DNA from: Candidatus Pacearchaeota archaeon
GTDB lineage: Archaea; Nanobdellota; Nanobdellia; Pacearchaeales; GW2011-AR1
Reading direction: 5' to 3'
NCBI GenBank assembly: GCA_018303885.1
Contig: JAGVXG010000001.1
Span: 11,746 to 75,745 of the forward strand
DNA: 64,000 bases
In this document: positions 23,987 to 63,845 of the stretch, one piece after another
Numbering within the stretch: position 1 is the stretch's first letter
Layout of the letters: each line of letters opens with the position of its first letter
Position numbers and translations under genes: made by a program
The notes under the pieces: generated by a model
What the model was told of the DNA's origin: nothing
The model's database searches: none
What the model saw: only the letters and a program-made list of their open reading frames with translations

Positions 23987-24139
23987 CCCTCTGTAGCTTA
24001 GTGGTTAAAGCGCCTGGCTGTAGGTTTTACCTAAGGTGGAGATTCAATTATGATTACGATGAAGCCCCAAAAGCCAGCTCTTGAGTTTAAGAACGAAGCA
24101 GAACCCGGGAGATCCCCAGTTCGACTCTGGGCGGAGGGA
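23987..24139 (+). tRNA. tRNA-Tyr(GTA) with an 80-nt intron at canonical 37/38 position (intron 24024..24103)
   Basis: Acceptor CCCTCTG/CGGAGGG, D arm GCTT-AGTGGTTA-AAGC, anticodon stem CCTGG/CCGGG, loop CTGTAG|...|C, T arm CCCAG-TTCGACT-CTGGG, discriminator A, then T-tract. Confidence 0.6.
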
Positions 24140-34988: not shown

Positions 34989-36353
34989 ATGGGCTCTGCT
35001 GACCTAGAAAAAAAGGCGACGGAATTGGATTCTTTGAATCATGTCAGAAGAGAAATTCCTGGTGGCGGAGAAGTTTATGTTTTGGACACTGGCGCGGTAA
35101 TAGACAGTGAAGGCGAAGCAATGCTTCAGGCACTTCATTCCAGATCTGTTGGAGGTCTCAAAAGCCATCTAGAGGCTCTTAAACAAAAAGGCGCTGCGAA
35201 TTTCATGAACAGTTTCTATGTCGGCTATGGGCATAAATCTATTGGAGACTGCGGATCCACAACAATATTTATTGAAGGAGTTTCTATGTTCGTAGCAAAG
35301 GCTATTCAAGATAACAGATTATACAACGGTCAAGAAGCGTCTACAAGATATATTGATTTTTCAAGACAACCTTTTGTTAATCCTATTGGAACTGCAGAAG
35401 GGCAGGAATTATTAGAGTCTCAAAGAAGATTTTATCTTTCTATTTTAGACCCGATAAGAAGATTTTTGAAAGAGCAAAACCCACAATCTGGAGGTGAGAA
35501 GGATAGTGTCTATGAGAAGGCTATCAATGCAAGAGCTTTTGATATTGCCAGGGGATTTTTGCCTGCCGGGGCAGCAACAAATTTGGCATGGCACTCAAAT
35601 CTGAGACAGGTTTCAGATAGGTTATTGTTTCTGCGACATCATCCTCTAGAAGAAGTAAGGAATGTTGCCCACACAGTAGAGGGGGCAGTCCTTGAAGCCC
35701 ATCCAAACTCATTTACAAATAAGAGATACTCTGATACAGAGTCTTACCAAGATTTAATTGCAGGAAATTATTTTTATCATAATCCTGATTCGCCAGATAT
35801 TTCTGTGACCTCTAATTTGGATTTATCTGGATTAAGAGGGATGAGAGAGTTAATCGATAAAAGACCTGAAAAAACAGAGCTTCCTAAATTTTTAAGCCAA
35901 GCGGGAACAATTCATGCTGAATTTAAATTAGATTTTGGTTCCTTCAGGGATTTACAGAGACATAGGGCACTAGATCAACGAATGCCCCTGTTAACTACAG
36001 ATATTGGTTTTAATTCGTGGTATTTAGAAAACCTGCCCGAAGAAACTAGGGGAAGTGCAGAGGACTTTTTAGCCAATTTAAGAAAAAGAGTTTGGGGATT
36101 GAACGCTTCTTTAGAGGTGCGCCAATATTACGTTCCTATGGGATTTAATACTTCAAATTCAATAAGTGGTGATCTTCCTGCTATGCTGTACATGGTGGAG
36201 TTAAGGTCAACGAGATTTGTTCATCCAACATTAAGAAGAGTGGCAAGGGGTATTGGAGAATATATTGGCGGCCTGGGAGTTCCAGTACATTTTGATTCAG
36301 AACCTGATAGATTTGATGTAAAGAGGGGGGAGCAAGATATTTTTATTAAATAA
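34989..36353 (+). CDS. ThyX-like (flavin-dependent thymidylate synthase fold) protein, unusually long (454 aa)
   Basis: N-half GHKSIGDCGSTTIFIEGVSMFVAKAIQDNRLYNGQEASTRY aligns with ThyX GHeS..E...tF.i.gvSR......RHR..S..q.SqRY but RHR degenerate (DNR); C-half carries FRDLQRHRALDQR. Confidence 0.5.
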   Translation: MGSADLEKKATELDSLNHVRREIPGGGEVYVLDTGAVIDSEGEAMLQALHSRSVGGLKSHLEALKQKGAANFMNSFYVGYGHKSIGDCGSTTIFIEGVSMFVAKAIQDNRLYNGQEASTRYIDFSRQPFVNPIGTAEGQELLESQRRFYLSILDPIRRFLKEQNPQSGGEKDSVYEKAINARAFDIARGFLPAGAATNLAWHSNLRQVSDRLLFLRHHPLEEVRNVAHTVEGAVLEAHPNSFTNKRYSDTESYQDLIAGNYFYHNPDSPDISVTSNLDLSGLRGMRELIDKRPEKTELPKFLSQAGTIHAEFKLDFGSFRDLQRHRALDQRMPLLTTDIGFNSWYLENLPEETRGSAEDFLANLRKRVWGLNASLEVRQYYVPMGFNTSNSISGDLPAMLYMVELRSTRFVHPTLRRVARGIGEYIGGLGVPVHFDSEPDRFDVKRGEQDIFIK

Positions 36354-42880: not shown

Positions 42881-43012
42881 TGCGCTGTCCGAGAATCGAA
42901 CTCGGGTCACCTCGTCTTTGCGTTTACACCAAATTATTAAAGGAGATGGTGCGGAAGAACCTTTGGTTCTTCTGCGTGGCAACGAGATATTCTACCATTA
43001 AACCAACAGCGC
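42881..43012 (-). tRNA. Intron-containing tRNA, most likely tRNA-Gly(GCC); 61-nt intron at 37/38 (about 42916..42976)
   Basis: Minus strand: GCGCTGT acceptor / ACAGCGC-A, D loop AATGGTAGA, anticodon stem TCTCG/CGAGG with loop TTGCCA|intron, T arm CCGAG-TTCGATT-CTCGG; intron holds an 8-bp hairpin GAAGAACC/GGTTCTTC. Alternative register gives CCA (Trp). Confidence 0.55.
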
Positions 43013-57509: not shown

Positions 57510-58997
57510 CTAAGTATAACTCGGCATTCCATGCGCTTTTTTGTATGTATCAAAAACCCTGAATGTGATATCTTCTGCATTTTTTGATGCAAGCTTTCTT
57601 ATAATTTCTTTTTCTGCATAATTTTCTGGTTTGATTTTCACTTTTTCTTTTTTCGCTTCGGCTTTTTTTTCAGCGGTTTCTGGGCTTGCTGGTTTTGATT
57701 CATAGCCCCCTATTAAAGCAGTGAATGGGTTTGAATCATCTTCTGATTTCTTGCGCTCTTGTTCGTCTTCTTTTTCTTCTAGGAAAAAATTTATTTCTTC
57801 CTGAAGCTGAGCCATGCTTTCTCCTGTTGAGCCTTCTATCAGCCTTAGAACATCACCGACATCAGAAGCATCGATTTCTTCATTAAGTTTTTTGAGCTCG
57901 TCTTCATTAAGAACATAAGACTTAAAAGACACGTCTGCTCTTCCGCCGAAGACATAATGAGACTGCTGACTCACTCTTTGCGGAATTCCGCGAAATCTGA
58001 AATCCACTAGAACACAGCTGTAATAATTTTTTGTCTTTAGTCTTTCAATTTCTTTTGGAAAATTTCCAGAAAGAACTTCTTCATGCACATCAATTTTTTT
58101 CTTGCCGAGAAGCGTTAATTCCAAGACAATAGTGTTGAATGCCTTGACAAGTGCAGGTTCGCGCCCTCCAGTATCCTTCATTTCAAGCTCTTGGGCAGCT
58201 TTTAAGTAGGGCTTAGCCCAGCGTGCGTATAGCTTCAAAGAATTAACCTGGCTGCTCAAATATGTTTTTTCAAGATTATATCTTTTTCTAAGTTCTCCTT
58301 CAGAATGCGCAAGCCAATCATTAAATTCTAAGACTCTCGCGCGAAGAATACGTTTTACACGGTCATTCAAGTCAACAGAATCCACTTCTTTGAGGTCTTT
58401 AACAAAAAGAAATGCGTCTATTAATGTTTGGAATCCCGCTTGTCCGAGAGCCATGGCTTTTATGCTAGAATTCCCTTTATTTATGTCAACCTTGTCCATC
58501 CACAATTGTTTTAATGCAAGAATTGCAGCTTCTTTTTTTTCTGATTTAAGGGCGTCGTAACTGCTTAAACGAATCCTGAATTCCTTAAGATCATAAATAA
58601 TATTCAATACGCTTCTAAGAACAGCATTGATGTCTGCGAGAATTTTTGACCCCTGCTGCTGCATGGCTGTTGCCCTCTGGCCTAATTCAGCAAAATGTCC
58701 TGAGCCAGGAGAAGAGGAAAAATTGTCCATGAATTTTTCTGTTTGTAAGCCAAGGTCGTTCATTAAATCAAGGATAAAGAAATAAACCGGCTCAAGGGTT
58801 TCCGAAGAGGAATCATAAACAAGCTCGTGCTTTGAAATTGGTTTTTCTTTTATTTCTTCTGAGTTAACTGCGCCTAGAGAACCATATTTCTTCAGCAAAT
58901 CCTTGCTGTTTTCTGCATAAAGCTTAGGATTTACCTTTCCGATTATCTGTGAAATTGTGGCGACCAATGTAAGGAACAAAGGTTCCTTGACAGTCAA
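57510..58997 (-). CDS. Hypothetical protein
   Basis: 495 aa; helical, C-terminal acidic/Lys-rich tail. Confidence 0.5.
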   Translation of the reverse strand: MTVKEPLFLTLVATISQIIGKVNPKLYAENSKDLLKKYGSLGAVNSEEIKEKPISKHELVYDSSSETLEPVYFFILDLMNDLGLQTEKFMDNFSSSPGSGHFAELGQRATAMQQQGSKILADINAVLRSVLNIIYDLKEFRIRLSSYDALKSEKKEAAILALKQLWMDKVDINKGNSSIKAMALGQAGFQTLIDAFLFVKDLKEVDSVDLNDRVKRILRARVLEFNDWLAHSEGELRKRYNLEKTYLSSQVNSLKLYARWAKPYLKAAQELEMKDTGGREPALVKAFNTIVLELTLLGKKKIDVHEEVLSGNFPKEIERLKTKNYYSCVLVDFRFRGIPQRVSQQSHYVFGGRADVSFKSYVLNEDELKKLNEEIDASDVGDVLRLIEGSTGESMAQLQEEINFFLEEKEDEQERKKSEDDSNPFTALIGGYESKPASPETAEKKAEAKKEKVKIKPENYAEKEIIRKLASKNAEDITFRVFDTYKKAHGMPSYT

Positions 58998-59133: not shown

Positions 59134-59445
59134 ATGGGATTATTTGGTTTCGGAAGCAAGAGGCAGGAAATTGTCGATCTTGCAGAAAGATACCGACAGA
59201 AAAAAGACAGAGAAGCGTCTGAAGGGGAAGCAGAAAAAAACATAAATGAGGCATTTGAAAAACTCGGGCCTGAAGACGAGGCTTCTGACTCGCTTGTTAG
59301 CCCAGAGGAAAAGAAAAAAAGACTGGCAAAAAGAATTCTTGACATAGTAAACAGGCTCGATGATTTATCGAATAAGATATATCACTTGCAGCAAAGGGTT
59401 GAGCTTCTTGAAAGAAAAGCTGATATTGGACGAGCTGAAAGTTAA
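59134..59445 (+). CDS. Hypothetical coiled-coil protein
   Basis: 103 aa; preferred over antisense 59106..59345. Confidence 0.35.
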   Translation: MGLFGFGSKRQEIVDLAERYRQKKDREASEGEAEKNINEAFEKLGPEDEASDSLVSPEEKKKRLAKRILDIVNRLDDLSNKIYHLQQRVELLERKADIGRAES

Positions 59446-59486: not shown

Positions 59487-60707
59487 ATGATTAAAAACCT
59501 GGAAAAAAAGGCGATGGCATACGCGTTGAAAAACGCGATTGCATATGATGGAGTTGCAAGAATGGGCTCTGTGATTTCTGCGCTATTTAATGAAGGGTTA
59601 AAACCAGAAGAAGTAAAAAAGAATTCTAAAAAAATAAGTGATATTATCGCTGAAGTCAACAATCTTTCAAAAGAACAGCAAGAGAAGGAATTTAAGAAAC
59701 TTGAAGAAGTTGTGCATGTCAGAGAAGGCCGGGAAGGCTTACCGGAATTACCGGGAGCGAAGAAAGGAAAAGTTGTCATGAGGCTCGCTCCGTCTGCCTC
59801 GGGGCCAATGCATGCAGGGCATGCATTAACTTTTTCTTTGTCTTTTCTCTTTGTGAAAGAGTACGGCGGAAAATTATACATGAGAATAGAAGACACAAAT
59901 CCTGAGAATATTTATCCAAAAGCATATGAAATGATTAAAGCAGAGAGTGATTGGCTTTTTGATGGAAGTGCTAAGATTCTCATTCAGTCTGACAGGATGA
60001 AGCTTTATTATGGATATGCAGAAAAACTTATCAAAAAAGATGCTGCCTATGTGTGCACTTGCGATTCTGACAAATTTAAGGAATATATAGGCAAAAAAAC
60101 CAATTGCCCATGCAGAAGGTTTGACATTAAAGAAAATCTTGAGCACTGGAAAAAGATGCTTGACAAAGGCAAGGGTTCTTTTGGAGAGGGGGAAGCTGTT
60201 TTGCGGTTTAAGTCAAAGAATAGCATGCAAGACAAAAACCCTGCAATGAGAGATTTCCCTTTGGCTAGAATTAATTTAACAAAGCATGTAAGGCAGGGAA
60301 ATAAATACAGGGTTTGGCCTTTGATGAATCTCGCTGTTACAGTGGATGACATAGATCTTGAAATGACTCATGTAATTCGTGCTAAAGACCATAGAGATAA
60401 TGCAGAAAGACAGAAAAAAATGTACGAAGCTTTAGGAATTGGGAAAAAATTTCCGTGGACTTCTTTTCTTGGAAGAATAAAATTCAAGGATTTTGAGTTA
60501 TCGACGTCAAAAATGAGAAAAGAAATCGAAGAAGGAAAGTACTCTGGTTGGGACGATCCAAGGCTTCCAACACTTGCTTCTTTGAAAAAACAAGGCTACA
60601 AGCCAAGCGCGTTTTGGAAATTTGCAGAGCGCATTGGCTTGTCGGAAAATGATAAAGTACTCGACAGAAAGGAATTTTTTACATTATTAGATGATTTTAA
60701 TAAATGA
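59487..60707 (+). CDS. gltX: Glutamyl-tRNA synthetase, archaeal/eukaryal-type catalytic core, lacking C-terminal anticodon-binding domain
   Basis: 406 aa; HIGH = PMHAGHA, KMSKS = LSTSKMRK about 65 aa from C-terminus; archaeal GluRS normally about 550-570 aa. Confidence 0.7.
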   Translation: MIKNLEKKAMAYALKNAIAYDGVARMGSVISALFNEGLKPEEVKKNSKKISDIIAEVNNLSKEQQEKEFKKLEEVVHVREGREGLPELPGAKKGKVVMRLAPSASGPMHAGHALTFSLSFLFVKEYGGKLYMRIEDTNPENIYPKAYEMIKAESDWLFDGSAKILIQSDRMKLYYGYAEKLIKKDAAYVCTCDSDKFKEYIGKKTNCPCRRFDIKENLEHWKKMLDKGKGSFGEGEAVLRFKSKNSMQDKNPAMRDFPLARINLTKHVRQGNKYRVWPLMNLAVTVDDIDLEMTHVIRAKDHRDNAERQKKMYEALGIGKKFPWTSFLGRIKFKDFELSTSKMRKEIEEGKYSGWDDPRLPTLASLKKQGYKPSAFWKFAERIGLSENDKVLDRKEFFTLLDDFNK

Positions 60708-60868
60708 TCCACTAGCTTCACTTGTTTAATAGCTTAGCTGTGCTTAGAGTTTTATAAAAACATTGTTAATATAAAAATAGTATATATAGATGATTTAAGT
60801 TAATAATTAGATACAACCGGGCCGAAAGGCGAGCAATTTCGCGAGACTAAATTGCTAACTCTCAACGA

Positions 60869-61393
60869 GTGGGGTTGCGAGTAGAGCAAATACTCGAACA
60901 TAATAACATTTTTAAAGAGGATTTTATTATATATAATATGGAAAGAGGTAAAATGAACAAAAGAGGACTTGATGCGATTGTGACTACTCTTATAATAATC
61001 CTTTTAGCTATAGTAGCCATAGGAATTATTTGGGTAGTTGTAAGGAATGTTGTTCAGCAAGGATCTGAGCAAATTGACATAAGTTCAAAATGCATTGCTG
61101 TTGACTTAAGAGCAGTTAGCGTTTCTCCTGTTTCAGGACAGGTCGGAAACTACTCTGTTACTCTGAATAGAAGAGCTGGAGGAGATGCAATTGGCGGAGT
61201 TAAAGTATCCTTGTTCAATGATACTGCCAATGGTGGAGTTCGTGATTTTGGTGTTACACTGAATGAGCTTGATACAAAAACACAGACAGTAGTTGGAGTT
61301 ACTGAGGCAAATAAGCTTGAATACACTGCTTACTTTGTAGATGCTTCAGGAAATGAACAGCTTTGCTCACAGACTGGAACATTCACTTTCTAA
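60869..61393 (+). CDS. Archaeal type IV pilin-like protein (class III signal peptide); likely start at internal Met about 60944/60959
   Basis: 174 aa; MNKRGLDAIVTTLIIILLAIVAIGIIWVV (KRG then hydrophobic helix), followed by beta-rich domain. Confidence 0.5.
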   Translation: MGLRVEQILEHNNIFKEDFIIYNMERGKMNKRGLDAIVTTLIIILLAIVAIGIIWVVVRNVVQQGSEQIDISSKCIAVDLRAVSVSPVSGQVGNYSVTLNRRAGGDAIGGVKVSLFNDTANGGVRDFGVTLNELDTKTQTVVGVTEANKLEYTAYFVDASGNEQLCSQTGTFTF

Positions 61394-61498: not shown

Positions 61499-61972
61499 AT
61501 GGTTAATTCTCCAGTCTTCAATCCTTACGGAACTCAGACTAAAAAGAGAACATTAGGGCAGAGAGATAAACAGATTCTTTGGAGTCAAGCAAATCATAAG
61601 TGCCAAAATCCTTATTGTCCAAGAAAAGGCAAACATATAGAATTTAACGAAATGCAGATAGGACACAAGACAGCTTTTTCTAGAGGGGGTAATACAACCT
61701 TAAAGAATAGTGTTTGTCTTTGTTACTCTTGTAATAAGCTTCAGGGAACTGATTCTTGGGAGAAGTTTTTAAAGAAACAGGCACAGGCAAAGATACAAGG
61801 AGAACTTAGAAAACCGAGAACTAAAACTCCAAAATCAATATCTAAAACACCAAGAAGTAGACAACCAAGAGTAAAAGAATTCAATCCGTTTGCTGAACCA
61901 AAGTTCAAAGAGCCAAAATGGGATAATGTTAATCTCTTTGGAAAATCAAAGAACCCCTTTGGTAATTTGTAA
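61499..61972 (+). CDS. HNH endonuclease domain protein with basic C-terminal tail
   Basis: 157 aa; CQNPYCPRKG ... IGHKTAFSRGGNTTLKNSVCLCYSCN (HNH with Cys4 zinc site). Confidence 0.6.
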   Translation: MVNSPVFNPYGTQTKKRTLGQRDKQILWSQANHKCQNPYCPRKGKHIEFNEMQIGHKTAFSRGGNTTLKNSVCLCYSCNKLQGTDSWEKFLKKQAQAKIQGELRKPRTKTPKSISKTPRSRQPRVKEFNPFAEPKFKEPKWDNVNLFGKSKNPFGNL

Positions 61973-62140: not shown

Positions 62141-62212
62141 GGCGGTTGTAGTTCAATGGTAGAACGCATGACTGTGGCTCGTGAGACGAGAGTTCGATTC
62201 TCTCCTTCCGCC
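62141..62212 (+). tRNA. tRNA-His(GTG) with encoded G-1
   Basis: G-1 + GCGGTTG acceptor / CTTCCGC-C (two U-U mismatches at 5:68, 6:67), D arm GTTC-AATGGTA-GAAC, anticodon stem CATGA/TCGTG loop CTGTGGC, T arm GAGAG-TTCGATT-CTCTC. Confidence 0.6.
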
Positions 62213-62253
62213 CTTACGACGACCACGCTTGGGCGAAGTCAAGAGAGGTTAAC

Positions 62254-62697
62254 ATGAAAAAAACAAGGATACTATTTGTCTGTAAGCATAACAAATTTAG
62301 AAGCAAGATTGCTGAAATTTATTTTAATATGATAAATAAGAATAAGAATGTCATTGCAGGTAGTGCGGGAATTATTAGAGGGGATTCTCTTATAGAGAAA
62401 CAGGTTTTGTTTGTCGCAAAAGAATTTAACATAAACTTAAAAGGAAAACCAAAGGGATTGAGCATAGGCTTAATAAGAAAACAAAACTTAATTATTATTG
62501 TGGCTGATGATGTTCCAAAAAACATATTTGACAGAAAAGAATACATAAATTTCAAAACAACAAAAATAATCGTGTGGAAAATTCCAGACAATCCAGGAGC
62601 TACTAGCATTATCAAATTGAGACAGATTGTAAAGGCAATAATGAAAAAAGTCGAGCAATTAAATAGAGATTTGGAGGAAAGAAAAAATAGAAAATGA
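62254..62697 (+). CDS. Low-molecular-weight protein tyrosine phosphatase / ArsC-like (LMW-PTP fold)
   Basis: 147 aa; CX5R P-loop ILFVCKHNKFRS. Confidence 0.65.
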   Translation: MKKTRILFVCKHNKFRSKIAEIYFNMINKNKNVIAGSAGIIRGDSLIEKQVLFVAKEFNINLKGKPKGLSIGLIRKQNLIIIVADDVPKNIFDRKEYINFKTTKIIVWKIPDNPGATSIIKLRQIVKAIMKKVEQLNRDLEERKNRK

Positions 62698-63845
62698 CAG
62701 AACCAGTTAAGGGCTTTAAAGATTATTCTGGGAAAGAAGCCATTAAGAGAGAAGAAATCAGAAAAATCTTAGTTGAAACTTTTGAAAGATATGGCTTTGA
62801 ACCTGTAGAAACGCCAATAGTTGAACAAGAAGAGTTTGTTCGCGGTGAGAATGTTAGTGATGAAGCTGTCTCTGATATTTTTAAGCTACAAGATAAAGGA
62901 AAAAGAAATCTTGCTTTAAGATACGAATTCACATTTCAACTGAAAAGGCTAATGAAAAACAAAAAACTTCCTTACAAAAGATATCAAATAGGCGAAGTTT
63001 TTCGCGATGAGCCAATTTCTGCAAATAGATTCAGACAATTTACTCAATGTGATGTAGATGTTGTTGGCTCTGGCATAAGGAATGAGGCAGAAGTTCTTGC
63101 TCTTACAAATGAAATAATGATAACTTTGGGAATAAAACCGCTAATTTTGATAAATAATCGCGGGTTGTTAAATGAAATTCTTCAAGATTGCAGAGTAAAA
63201 GAAAAAGACAGGCTTCAAGTTTTAAGAGAAATCGATAAGTATGGAAAAATTTCTGATAAGGAAATTAAACAAAACCTTAAAAAATACAAGGCGGAGAAAG
63301 TCCTTGACACTTTAAAACAAGGCGAAGAATATTTCAATAAATTTCAAGGATATAAACAAATTATAGCATTGATTGAATACTGCAAACTTTATGGTGTTAA
63401 AGTAAAATTTTCTCCAACAGTAATACGCGGGCTTTCATATTACAATGAAAATGTGTTTGAAGTAAAGGCAAAAAACAGTGTTGGAATAAGTAAAGATTCA
63501 ATTGTCGCTGGCGGAAGCTATATGTTTAATGGCATTCAATGCACCGGAATCTCTTTTGGCTTAGAGAGAATTTCTACACTTGCAAAACTTGATAATGTTA
63601 ATGAGAAAGAGAAAATTTTAGTTGTTTCCTTAGGACAAGACAAAGAAACGATAGGTTTAGCACAAAAACTAAGAAAAAACAGAAAGGTTGTTTCTTTATT
63701 TTACGGAAAACCGACCAAGGCACTTGAATATGCTAATTCATATGGCTTTCAAAAAGTTATTTTTGTCGGAGAGAAAGAAATCAAGGCAAAAAAGTTTAAG
63801 GTTAAAAACATGAAGACGGGAAAGGAATCGGAACTGAAGATTTGA
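62694..63845 (+). CDS. hisS: Histidyl-tRNA synthetase
   Basis: 383 aa; N-terminal GFKDYSGKEAIKREEIRKILVETFERYGFEPVETPIVE (HisRS motif 1), AGGSYMF (motif 3-like), C-terminal HGTP anticodon-binding domain; overlaps previous gene by 4 nt. Confidence 0.7.
   Translation: MTEPVKGFKDYSGKEAIKREEIRKILVETFERYGFEPVETPIVEQEEFVRGENVSDEAVSDIFKLQDKGKRNLALRYEFTFQLKRLMKNKKLPYKRYQIGEVFRDEPISANRFRQFTQCDVDVVGSGIRNEAEVLALTNEIMITLGIKPLILINNRGLLNEILQDCRVKEKDRLQVLREIDKYGKISDKEIKQNLKKYKAEKVLDTLKQGEEYFNKFQGYKQIIALIEYCKLYGVKVKFSPTVIRGLSYYNENVFEVKAKNSVGISKDSIVAGGSYMFNGIQCTGISFGLERISTLAKLDNVNEKEKILVVSLGQDKETIGLAQKLRKNRKVVSLFYGKPTKALEYANSYGFQKVIFVGEKEIKAKKFKVKNMKTGKESELKI

What the first reader, a model, noticed from the sequence alone, without database searches (positions are those of the whole stretch)
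59487..60707. Glutamyl-tRNA synthetase catalytic core without an anticodon-binding domain
The ORF has the archaeal-type N-terminal extension, the HIGH motif (PMHAGHA) and the KMSKS motif (LSTSKMRK). It terminates about 65 residues after KMSKS, at 406 aa, whereas archaeal GluRS is typically 550-570 aa. A 160-nt non-coding spacer and an unrelated pilin gene follow, so the missing beta-barrel anticodon-binding domain is not encoded downstream in any frame. The first possibility is that the anticodon-binding module is supplied in trans by a separate gene. The second is that this is a paralog acting on something other than tRNA(Glu), by analogy with truncated Glu-Q-RS/YadB. The third is that the gene is a pseudogene in a reduced genome. 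Each has consequences for how Glu-tRNA and Gln-tRNA are made.
Basis: partly seen in the sequence, partly recalled or inferred. Interest (0 to 1): 0.6.

Follow-up and report, generated by a model that had tools for sequence, protein, structure and literature searches.

The report
Archaeal GluRS that lost its anticodon-binding domain
This small-genome (DPANN, Pacearchaeota-type) archaeon and hundreds of its relatives carry a well-conserved glutamyl-tRNA synthetase that stops exactly where the anticodon-reading domain should begin, so they probably charge tRNA-Glu (and tRNA-Gln) without reading the anticodon, although I could not check whole genomes for a second copy.

Summary
ORF 59487-60707 encodes a 406-aa archaeal-type GluRS. 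It keeps the N-terminal helical domain, the Rossmann fold with HIGH, the Zn-binding CP insertion, the KMSKS-equivalent loop and the stem-contact fold. It lacks both C-terminal beta-barrels.

It is not a pseudogene or an assembly error. More than 120 protein clusters and 79 of 79 complete metagenome genes stop within -1 to +10 residues of the same position. dN/dS is about 0.06-0.08. The AlphaFold model (pLDDT 93.7) superposes on M. thermautotrophicus ND-GluRS, and the GluRS-type Arg and other catalytic residues are invariant.

The short clade nests inside full-length Nanoarchaeota/Woesearchaeota GluRS. Its sister is a 468-aa intermediate in the same synteny block that has lost only the distal barrel. 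At least one other lineage (398-400 aa) lost the module independently at the same boundary.

I found no anticodon-binding module and no second GluRS in any frame of the window or about 0.95 Mb of related loci. "Stand-alone" modules in the database are frameshifted full-length genes. The adjacent pilin-like ORF is unrelated.

Best reading: stepwise domain loss in the housekeeping ND-GluRS. A full-length copy or trans module elsewhere in the genome is not excluded, because whole genomes could not be searched.

The parts
59487..60707 (+). Short GluRS gene (406 codons plus TGA)
   Evidence: ORF list and sequence. PF00749 only. An identical protein is in NCBI as 'hypothetical protein J4422_00540 [Candidatus Pacearchaeota archaeon]'.
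59487..59741 (+). N-terminal four-helix domain (residues 1-85). It is homologous to the domain the authors of 3AII call the YqeY domain.
   Evidence: A profile of this domain matches residues 5-94 of M. thermautotrophicus GluRS with E = 1.7e-11. The domain name and limits come from PMC2978374. AlphaFold predicts helices 5-19, 26-35, 40-58 and 62-75. Pfam and Foldseek do not independently link it to YqeY/GatB.
59769..60506 (+). Catalytic core: the two Rossmann-fold halves (residues ~95-179 and ~297-340) with the CP insertion (residues ~180-296) between them
   Evidence: Alignment to 3AII and GlnRS. Foldseek best hit is 3AII, rmsd 1.9 A over 319 columns.
59805..59825 (+). HIGH motif, P-M-H-A-G-H-A (residues 107-113)
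   Evidence: Read from the sequence. H109, G111 and H112 are invariant in 117 short-clade sequences.
60054..60113 (+). Zn-binding cysteines C190, C192, C207, C209 (CTC...CPC) in the CP insertion
   Evidence: C190, C192 and C207 are invariant and C209 is at least 90% conserved. They align to CTC...CHC of 3AII, whose structure holds one zinc ion.
60378..60380 (+). R298, the GluRS-type arginine at the position of E. coli GlnRS C229
   Evidence: Located by comparing the C229R mutant chain 2RD2 with wild-type GlnRS in the alignments. Invariant in the short clade and at least 80% conserved in full-length relatives.
60498..60512 (+). KMSKS-equivalent loop, L-S-T-S-K (residues 338-342)
   Evidence: Aligns to LSTSG of 3AII and VMSKR of GlnRS.
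60570..60704 (+). Stem-contact fold. Its last helix ends '...FFTLLDDFNK', exactly at the boundary with the missing proximal beta-barrel.
   Evidence: The domain limits of 3AII (SC fold 354-399, proximal barrel from 400) come from PMC2978374. Full-length relatives continue '...YNKEVVEKSNRYFF...'. Independent short lineages end at the same point.
60708..60937 (.). Non-coding spacer with no remnant of the anticodon-binding module
   Evidence: Six-frame profile search of the window is negative.
60938..61393 (+). Context only: a 151-aa pilin-like ORF, usually adjacent to the short gene. It was tested as a candidate for the missing module and rejected.
   Evidence: Present next to or near the short gene in most sampled loci. 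N-terminal hydrophobic segment KRGLDAIVTTLIIILLAIVAIGIIW. hhalign against the C-terminal module gives probability 0.1%, versus 95% for the positive control. It is absent downstream of the 468-aa intermediate.

Best explanation
This is the housekeeping, archaeal-type (presumably non-discriminating) glutamyl-tRNA synthetase of a Pacearchaeota/Nanoarchaeota-type DPANN archaeon. It has lost its whole anticodon-binding module by stepwise deletion.

Shown: the enzyme keeps an intact, strongly constrained active site of GluRS type. It also keeps all tRNA-acceptor-side domains (CP insertion, stem-contact fold) and the N-terminal helical domain. The loss is precise to the domain boundary and fixed in a large clade. 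It was preceded by an intermediate lacking only the distal barrel, and it recurred independently in another lineage.

Inferred: the enzyme still activates glutamate and transfers it to tRNA-Glu and tRNA-Gln. It would select these tRNAs through the acceptor stem, D-arm and elbow rather than the anticodon. tRNA affinity would be supplied by the retained N-terminal (YqeY-type) domain. For tRNA-Gln there may be added help from the GatDE amidotransferase, which in other archaea binds ND-GluRS and raises its affinity for tRNA-Gln.
For: (1) Conservation. All 120 best database hits (68-100% identity, many assemblies) are 398-421 aa and carry PF00749 only. In 79 of 79 complete genes from 80 metagenome loci the stop lies -1 to +10 residues from ours.

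(2) Selection. dN/dS is 0.062-0.078 against the closest relatives. The first 90 and last 70 codons are as constrained as the rest.

(3) Intact enzyme. HIGH, the Zn cysteines, R255/D256, R298 (GluRS-type Arg at GlnRS C229) and others are invariant. The AlphaFold model has pLDDT 93.7, and its best structural match is ND-GluRS 3AII at rmsd 1.9 A.

(4) Orthology and stepwise loss. Short clade + L020 + the 468-aa form P0121 is supported 200/200, and the short clade 199/200. The P0121 tail aligns to the last ~55 columns of the module, the proximal-barrel strands (hhalign 95%), so only the distal barrel was deleted there. P0121-type and short genes share the upstream synteny block NTP-transferase / AP_endonuc_2 / ~200 aa / ~480-524 aa / ~110-135 aa.

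(5) Recurrence. The P0137 lineage has 17 clusters, all 398-400 aa, with nearest relatives full-length at 48% identity or less. It joins our clade in 0/200 bootstraps, lies between a class I aaRS gene and L7Ae/S28e, and ends at the same boundary.

(6) No replacement found. There is no C-terminal module and no second GluRS/GlnRS-like gene in any frame of the window or of about 0.95 Mb of loci from short-gene organisms.

(7) Specific to GluRS. HisRS and SerRS in the same window keep their tRNA-binding domains.

(8) Plausibility from the literature. ND-GluRS forms a complex with GatDE, which raises its affinity for tRNA-Gln, and deltaN-PylRS enzymes are natural synthetases that lack a tRNA-binding domain with no trans copy in the genome (PMC9499178). 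A C-truncated E. coli GluRS is described in its paper's title as still specific for tRNA-Glu (Dubois et al. 2009, listed in PMC3927822).
Against: No whole genome carrying the short gene could be searched, so a second, full-length GluRS or a relocated module elsewhere is not excluded. The sampled ~0.95 Mb is mostly the same syntenic neighbourhood. No activity data exist. No tRNA-Glu, tRNA-Gln or gatDE genes were captured, so the proposed recognition mode is untested. In well-studied GlnRS and GluRS the anticodon is a major identity element, which makes anticodon-blind charging biochemically surprising. The clade sits on a long branch with fixed substitutions near the amino-acid pocket strand (W324, F327, L328, R303), which would also fit a change of function. 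The YqeY nature of the N-terminal domain rests on the 3AII paper only, because Pfam and Foldseek gave no independent support. The strong positive charge of the short enzymes is not GluRS-specific.
Confidence: 0.6

Rival explanations
1. Specialised paralog. The short protein has a different job, for example modifying another RNA or substrate as bacterial Glu-Q-RS/YadB does, and a canonical full-length GluRS elsewhere in the genome serves translation.
For: The architecture (catalytic core without an anticodon-binding domain) resembles YadB. The clade has a long stem branch and clade-specific fixed changes close to the amino-acid pocket (R303, W324, F327, L328). Whole genomes were not searched.
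Against: Glu-Q-RS models score 55-94 bits against cut-offs of 250-453. The protein is of archaeal GluRS type and keeps the N-terminal domain that YadB lacks. R298 and the other GluRS residues are invariant. It is the positional ortholog of the 468-aa intermediate, and both short lineages sit among translation genes such as HisRS, tRNA-His, another class I aaRS, and L7Ae/S28e. No second copy was seen in about 0.95 Mb. Two or more independent lineages would each need to retain a paralog in very small genomes. Archaea are not known to carry queuosine at position 34 (my own knowledge).
Confidence: 0.17
2. Split enzyme. The anticodon-binding beta-barrels are encoded as a separate gene elsewhere in the genome and join the core non-covalently.
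For: Split aaRS genes are reported for some DPANN archaea (PMC6349945). The title of Dubois et al. 2009 (reference list of PMC3927822) states that a free distal domain stimulates a C-truncated E. coli GluRS. Whole genomes were not searched.
Against: No module was found in the window or in related loci. A profile search of 5.8 billion proteins returned short C-terminal-domain proteins. Those checked on longer contigs (L014, L015, L016, and P0126/P0297) are frameshifted parts of contiguous full-length genes in other lineages, and none is a free-standing gene. The sister form P0121 shows an internal deletion of the distal barrel with the proximal strands retained, which is erosion rather than fission. 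The always-adjacent 151-aa ORF is unrelated to the module.
Confidence: 0.1
3. Pseudogene, or a truncation created by a sequencing or assembly error.
For: Such artefacts do exist in this family: P0126 (395 aa) with P0297 (149 aa) on one contig, and the frameshifted genes in L014-L016.
Against: The same stop position recurs in hundreds of independent assemblies. dN/dS is about 0.06-0.08. No downstream coding remnant exists. The fold prediction is confident.
Confidence: 0.01

Closest known systems
Archaeal non-discriminating GluRS (M. thermautotrophicus, PDB 3AII; NCBIfam PRK04156 / TIGR00463)
   Same: Same family. Identity is 41% over the structural alignment, with the same N-terminal domain, Rossmann fold, Zn-binding CP insertion, KMSKS-equivalent LSTS loop, stem-contact fold and GluRS-type Arg.
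   Different: It lacks the proximal and distal beta-barrels (3AII residues 400-552) that form the anticodon-binding module. It scores below both equivalog cut-offs.
Glu-Q-RS / YadB (bacterial tRNA glutamyl-Q34 synthetase)
   Same: A GluRS-like catalytic core that naturally lacks an anticodon-binding domain.
   Different: YadB is of the bacterial GluRS type, is about 300 aa, has no N-terminal domain, and is a paralog that coexists with a full GluRS and modifies queuosine in tRNA-Asp. The present protein is of archaeal type, fails the Glu-Q-RS models, and looks like the ortholog of the housekeeping enzyme.
Engineered C-truncated E. coli GluRS (Dubois et al. 2009; Dasgupta et al. 2009; both cited in PMC3927822)
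   Same: A GluRS core without its anticodon-binding part. The paper's title says it remains specific for tRNA-Glu.
   Different: It is a laboratory construct of the bacterial type, whose helical anticodon domain is unrelated to the beta-barrels. The present case is natural, fixed and recurrent.
deltaN-PylRS of Methanomassiliicoccus and Sifarchaeia (PMC9499178)
   Same: A natural synthetase that has lost a tRNA-binding domain, with no trans copy in the genome, and is still active.
   Different: It belongs to a different class and family. The lost domain there is N-terminal and does not read the anticodon.

Membership tests
Archaeal/eukaryotic-type GluRS (GlxRS, class Ib) | Class I catalytic domain PF00749 with HIGH and the KMSKS-equivalent loop | tested here: met
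   PF00749 E = 4e-60, residues 95-391. PMHAGHA and LSTSK read from the sequence and aligned to 3AII and GlnRS.
Archaeal/eukaryotic-type GluRS (GlxRS, class Ib) | Glutamate-type pocket: Arg at the position of GlnRS C229 | tested here: met
   R298 aligns to C229 (R in the C229R mutant 2RD2). It is invariant in the clade.
Archaeal/eukaryotic-type GluRS (GlxRS, class Ib) | Zn-binding Cys cluster in the CP insertion, and the N-terminal domain of archaeal GluRS | tested here: met
   C190/C192/C207/C209 are conserved. The N-terminal profile hits 3AII residues 5-94 with E = 1.7e-11.
Archaeal/eukaryotic-type GluRS (GlxRS, class Ib) | C-terminal proximal and distal beta-barrel anticodon-binding module (PF03950 + PF20974) | tested here: not met
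   No Pfam hit at E up to 1. The protein ends at the SC-fold/barrel boundary. No module in any frame of the window.
Archaeal/eukaryotic-type GluRS (GlxRS, class Ib) | Score above the NCBIfam equivalog cut-off (PRK04156 516 bits; TIGR00463 401.75 bits) | tested here: not met
   419.4 and 362.5 bits. The match covers only model positions 3-397 of 567 and 2-391 of 560.
Archaeal/eukaryotic-type GluRS (GlxRS, class Ib) | Glutamylates tRNA-Glu (and tRNA-Gln in archaea) | not testable with these tools
   Needs an aminoacylation assay.
Glu-Q-RS (YadB) | Match to the Glu-Q-RS equivalog models | tested here: not met
   55-94 bits against cut-offs of 250-453.
Glu-Q-RS (YadB) | Paralog that coexists with a complete GluRS | tested here: inconclusive
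   No second copy in the window or in about 0.95 Mb of related loci. Whole genomes were not searchable.
Split (trans-complemented) aminoacyl-tRNA synthetase | A separate gene encoding the missing module in the same genome | tested here: inconclusive
   Not found in the sampled DNA. Database 'stand-alone' modules are frameshifted full-length genes. Not tested genome-wide.
YqeY/GatB-tail type tRNA-binding domain (for the N-terminal domain) | Sequence or fold similarity to YqeY/GatB C-terminal domains | tested here: inconclusive

The most novel reading that the evidence does not exclude
A large clade of Pacearchaeota-type DPANN archaea, and at least one other lineage independently, run translation with a GluRS that has no anticodon-binding domain at all and is their only GluRS. 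Glu and Gln identity would be set entirely by acceptor, D-arm and elbow features, with GatDE discriminating tRNA-Gln. This would be a natural return to the 'catalytic-domain-only' GluRS long postulated as the primordial state.
Probability: 0.45. Interest if true: 0.75.

Novelty: new variant of a known kind. Interest (0 to 1): 0.6.

Why it matters
Anticodon recognition is regarded as central to tRNA selection by GluRS and GlnRS. The C-terminal module is thought to be a later addition to a primordial catalytic-domain-only enzyme (PMC3927822). A natural, abundant, strongly constrained GluRS lacking that module, with a preserved evolutionary intermediate and an independent repeat of the loss, would provide a living test case. 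It could show how much tRNA identity the catalytic half can carry, and how genome-reduced symbionts simplify the translation apparatus.

There is also a practical consequence. Annotation pipelines call these proteins 'hypothetical' or 'family protein' because they fail the equivalog cut-offs. GluRS may therefore be scored as missing in these genomes.

Tried and rejected
(1) Pseudogene or assembly error: rejected on length conservation, dN/dS and an intact active site.

(2) Remnant or frameshifted module downstream: rejected, because the six-frame profile search of the window and of all related loci is negative.

(3) The conserved 151-aa ORF immediately downstream as a disguised module: rejected. 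hhalign gives 0.1% against 95% for the control, it has a hydrophobic pilin-like N-terminus, and it is absent next to the 468-aa intermediate.

(4) Stand-alone C-terminal-domain proteins from the 5.8-billion-protein search: the ones on long contigs are frameshifted full-length genes, and most others are contig-end fragments.

(5) Scattered ~390-410-aa representatives among full-length ones: P0126 is a frameshift artefact. Others were not individually checked and are not counted as evidence.

(6) Electrostatic compensation. The short enzymes are very basic (core net charge about +30, against about +7 in the nearest full-length relatives). However, HisRS and SerRS of the same window are equally basic per residue. 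Full-length relatives of the P0137 lineage are also basic, and the short P0127 is not. The signal therefore follows lineage composition and is not evidence for compensation.

(8) The genome-collection scan with the single protein gave only 5 loci, so it could not be used to look for second copies.

(9) No tRNA-Glu, tRNA-Gln or gatDE genes were captured in the window or loci.

(10) Literature searches found no description of a naturally short archaeal GluRS.

Full report
OBSERVATION. The ORF is exactly as described: 59487..60707 on the + strand, ATG start, 406 codons, TGA stop. PMHAGHA occupies residues 107-113 and LSTSKMRK begins at residue 338. Pfam sees only the class I Glu/Gln catalytic domain PF00749 (residues 95-391) and neither of the two anticodon-binding families PF03950 and PF20974. 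The two archaeal GluRS equivalog models of NCBIfam match only their first ~395 of 560-567 positions, and both scores fall below the curated cut-offs. The best solved relative is the non-discriminating GluRS of Methanothermobacter thermautotrophicus (3AII, 553 aa), aligned query 9-399 to chain 8-391. I built a 172-position profile of the C-terminal module from 108 full-length relatives. It finds nothing in any of the six frames of the 64-kb window (best E = 0.35). The window has no second GluRS/GlnRS-like gene.

WHERE THE PROTEIN STOPS. The authors of 3AII give this domain map (PMC2978374):
- N-terminal YqeY domain: 1-85
- Rossmann fold: 86-170 and 288-331
- CP insertion: 171-287
- Stem-contact fold: 354-399
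- Proximal beta-barrel: 400-408 and 500-552
- Distal beta-barrel: 409-499

Our protein ends '...FFTLLDDFNK'. In the nearest full-length relatives the same helix continues '...YNKEVVEKSNRYFF...' into the first barrel strand. The protein therefore keeps everything through the stem-contact fold and lacks both barrels, cut exactly at the domain boundary. An AlphaFold model built on 117 relatives is confident (mean pLDDT 93.7). Its best structural match is 3AII (rmsd 1.9 A over 319 columns, 41% identity).

NOT AN ERROR, NOT A PSEUDOGENE. The 120 best hits among 5.8 billion proteins (68-100% identity; NCBI, JGI, ENA and Logan assemblies) are all 398-421 aa, apart from one 360-aa fragment, and carry PF00749 only. 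One is identical and labelled 'hypothetical protein J4422_00540 [Candidatus Pacearchaeota archaeon]'. A metagenome scan found more than 500 encoding loci. In the best 80, the stop lies -1 to +10 residues from ours in 79 of 79 complete genes. dN/dS against the closest relatives is 0.062-0.078, and the first 90 and last 70 codons are as constrained as the rest. The HIGH residues, the CP-domain cysteines (C190, C192, C207, C209), R255/D256 and many other residues are invariant. By comparing the GlnRS C229R mutant chain with wild type in the alignments, I placed GlnRS C229 opposite our R298. This residue is invariant here and near-invariant in full-length archaeal GluRS, so the pocket is of the glutamate type.

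EVOLUTIONARY HISTORY. In an exhaustive search of 1.84 billion representatives, the nearest full-length enzymes (553-570 aa, named Nanoarchaeota GluRS) are 47-51% identical. The closest relative of all is P0121, 468 aa and 58% identical. P0121 has seven same-length cluster members from several samples. Its 67-residue tail is a true remnant of the module: it aligns to the last ~55 profile columns, the C-terminal strands of the proximal barrel (HMM E = 2e-5, hhalign 95%). So this form lost only the distal barrel, by internal deletion.

In neighbour-joining trees of the core, the group (short clade + L020 + P0121) has 200/200 bootstrap support, the short clade 199/200, and short clade + L020 157/200. 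The P0121-type gene and the short genes share the upstream gene order NTP-transferase, AP_endonuc_2 (~600 aa), ~200 aa, ~480-524 aa, ~110-135 aa, then GluRS. They are therefore positional orthologs. The series full-length, then distal barrel lost, then both barrels lost is the simplest history.

A second lineage around P0137 consists of 17 clusters, all 398-400 aa. Identity then drops abruptly to full-length enzymes at 48% or less. It never joins our clade in bootstraps (0/200). It lies between a class I aaRS gene and the L7Ae/S28e genes on a 271-kb contig, and it ends at the same boundary. P0127 (412 aa) may be a third case. These trees are simple distance trees, so the number of independent losses should be confirmed with better methods.

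IS THE MODULE OR A SECOND GluRS ENCODED ELSEWHERE? I sampled the window plus about 0.95 Mb of loci from organisms carrying the short gene. No C-terminal module and no second GluRS-like gene appear in any frame. This DNA is largely the same syntenic neighbourhood, so it tests linked genes only.

A profile search of the protein database with the C-terminal module returned many short proteins. Those that I could place on longer contigs are pieces of contiguous full-length genes interrupted by a frameshift: L014 (414+149 aa), L015 (372+187 aa), L016, and P0126+P0297. ORF1 either runs into the first barrel strand or ends in out-of-frame sequence. They belong to other (Woesearchaeota-type) lineages.

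The 151-aa ORF that almost always follows the short gene has a pilin-like hydrophobic N-terminus and is unrelated to the module (hhalign 0.1%). It is absent next to the 468-aa intermediate.

Whole genomes could not be read with the tools available. This is the main gap in the argument.

MECHANISM.
- Shown: the gene is a functional, strongly constrained enzyme of archaeal GluRS type. It retains the amino-acid and ATP site, the acceptor-side domains, and the N-terminal domain.
- Inferred: it is the cell's GluRS and charges tRNA-Glu and tRNA-Gln without anticodon contacts.

Three points make this plausible. First, archaeal ND-GluRS already tolerates both YUC and YUG anticodons and lacks the G36-recognition loop of GlnRS (PMC2978374). 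[quoted passage not shown] Third, a C-truncated E. coli GluRS is reported to remain specific for tRNA-Glu (title of Dubois et al. 2009, listed in PMC3927822).

The retained N-terminal domain is homologous to the domain the 3AII authors call YqeY, and YqeY/GatB-tail domains bind tRNA (my own knowledge). However, I could not confirm the YqeY relationship independently.

I also tested whether extra positive charge compensates for the lost domain. The short enzymes are very basic, but so are HisRS and SerRS of the same window and some full-length relatives, so this is not specific evidence. HisRS and SerRS in the window keep their own tRNA-binding domains. The loss is therefore particular to GluRS.

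RIVALS. A YadB-like specialised paralog (my estimate 0.17) fits the long branch and some fixed substitutions near the pocket (R303, W324, F327, L328). It conflicts with the failed Glu-Q-RS models, the orthology and gene context, and the repeated occurrence in tiny genomes. A trans-encoded module (0.10) has no positive evidence, and the internal-deletion intermediate argues against it. A pseudogene or error (0.01) is excluded.

COMPARISON WITH WHAT IS KNOWN, AND NOVELTY. By sequence and fold this is a member of the archaeal GluRS lineage. It fails one defining architectural feature, the beta-barrel anticodon module, and it fails the curated equivalog cut-offs. I therefore file it as a new variant of a known kind, not as an ordinary member. 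Six literature searches found no description of a naturally anticodon-domain-less archaeal GluRS. DPANN reviews mention split synthetase genes in other lineages only. The library is incomplete, so prior description cannot be ruled out.

VERDICT. The most likely explanation is stepwise, recurrent loss of the anticodon-binding module from the housekeeping GluRS (confidence 0.6). Interest is 0.6: surprising to a synthetase specialist and directly testable. It depends on a whole-genome check for a second copy, which I could not run.

Noticed in passing
window 23987-24139 (+) and 42881-43012 (-): tRNA-Tyr(GTA) with an 80-nt intron and tRNA-Gly(GCC) with a 61-nt intron. Default ARAGORN missed both, and Rfam found only the Gly gene.
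   Followed up: partly
window 62142-62213, 62254-62697, 62694-63845 (+): A tRNA-His(GTG) gene sits just upstream of a low-molecular-weight phosphatase-like gene and HisRS, whose start overlaps the preceding stop. tRNA-His accompanies HisRS in 50 of the sampled related loci, and in L008 it carries a 93-nt intron. This is a conserved linkage between a tRNA and its own synthetase.
   Followed up: partly
window 61499-61972 (+): An HNH endonuclease ORF (PF01844) lies between the pilin-like gene and tRNA-His. It is absent at this position in close relatives (L004, L006), so it is probably a mobile insertion.
   Followed up: partly
window 60938-61393 (+): A 151-aa pilin-like ORF with a class-III-signal-like N-terminus. 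In the family consensus, a Cys near position 50 is at least 70% conserved and one near the C-terminus at least 40%. It lies next to or near the short GluRS gene in most sampled loci. It has no Pfam family, and the reason for the tight linkage is unknown.
   Followed up: partly
L014 8770-10450; L015 8934-10564; L016 1-1481: Full-length Woesearchaeota-type GluRS genes interrupted by single frameshifts on long contigs (442 kb and 94 kb). One C-terminal piece (P0330) has 14 member sequences. They are probably sequencing errors, but recurrent real frameshifts or decay were not excluded.
   Followed up: partly
L017 10001-11200 (GCA_014239585.1, contig JAAZYP010000001.1): A second, independent lineage of short GluRS (398-400 aa, 17 clusters), flanked by a class I aaRS gene (PF00579) and L7Ae/S28e. 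P0127 (412 aa) and the intermediate P0134 (474 aa) suggest further independent reductions.
   Followed up: partly
window 59487-60707, residues R303, W324, F327, L328, W377, E381, K390: These substitutions are fixed in the short clade but rare in full-length relatives. Four lie in or near the strand that lines the amino-acid pocket before the KMSKS loop. Three lie in the stem-contact-fold region next to where the barrels attach in the full-length enzyme.
   Followed up: no
window 57510-58997 (-) and 59134-59445 (+): Two ORFs without any Pfam family: a 495-aa ORF with a TTG start, and a 103-aa Lys/Glu-rich ORF. Both are conserved in position upstream of GluRS in all short-clade loci and next to the 468-aa intermediate.
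   Followed up: no
window 34989-36353 (+): A 454-aa ORF whose ThyX (PF02511) match covers only residues 60-239, which leaves about half of the protein unassigned.
   Followed up: no
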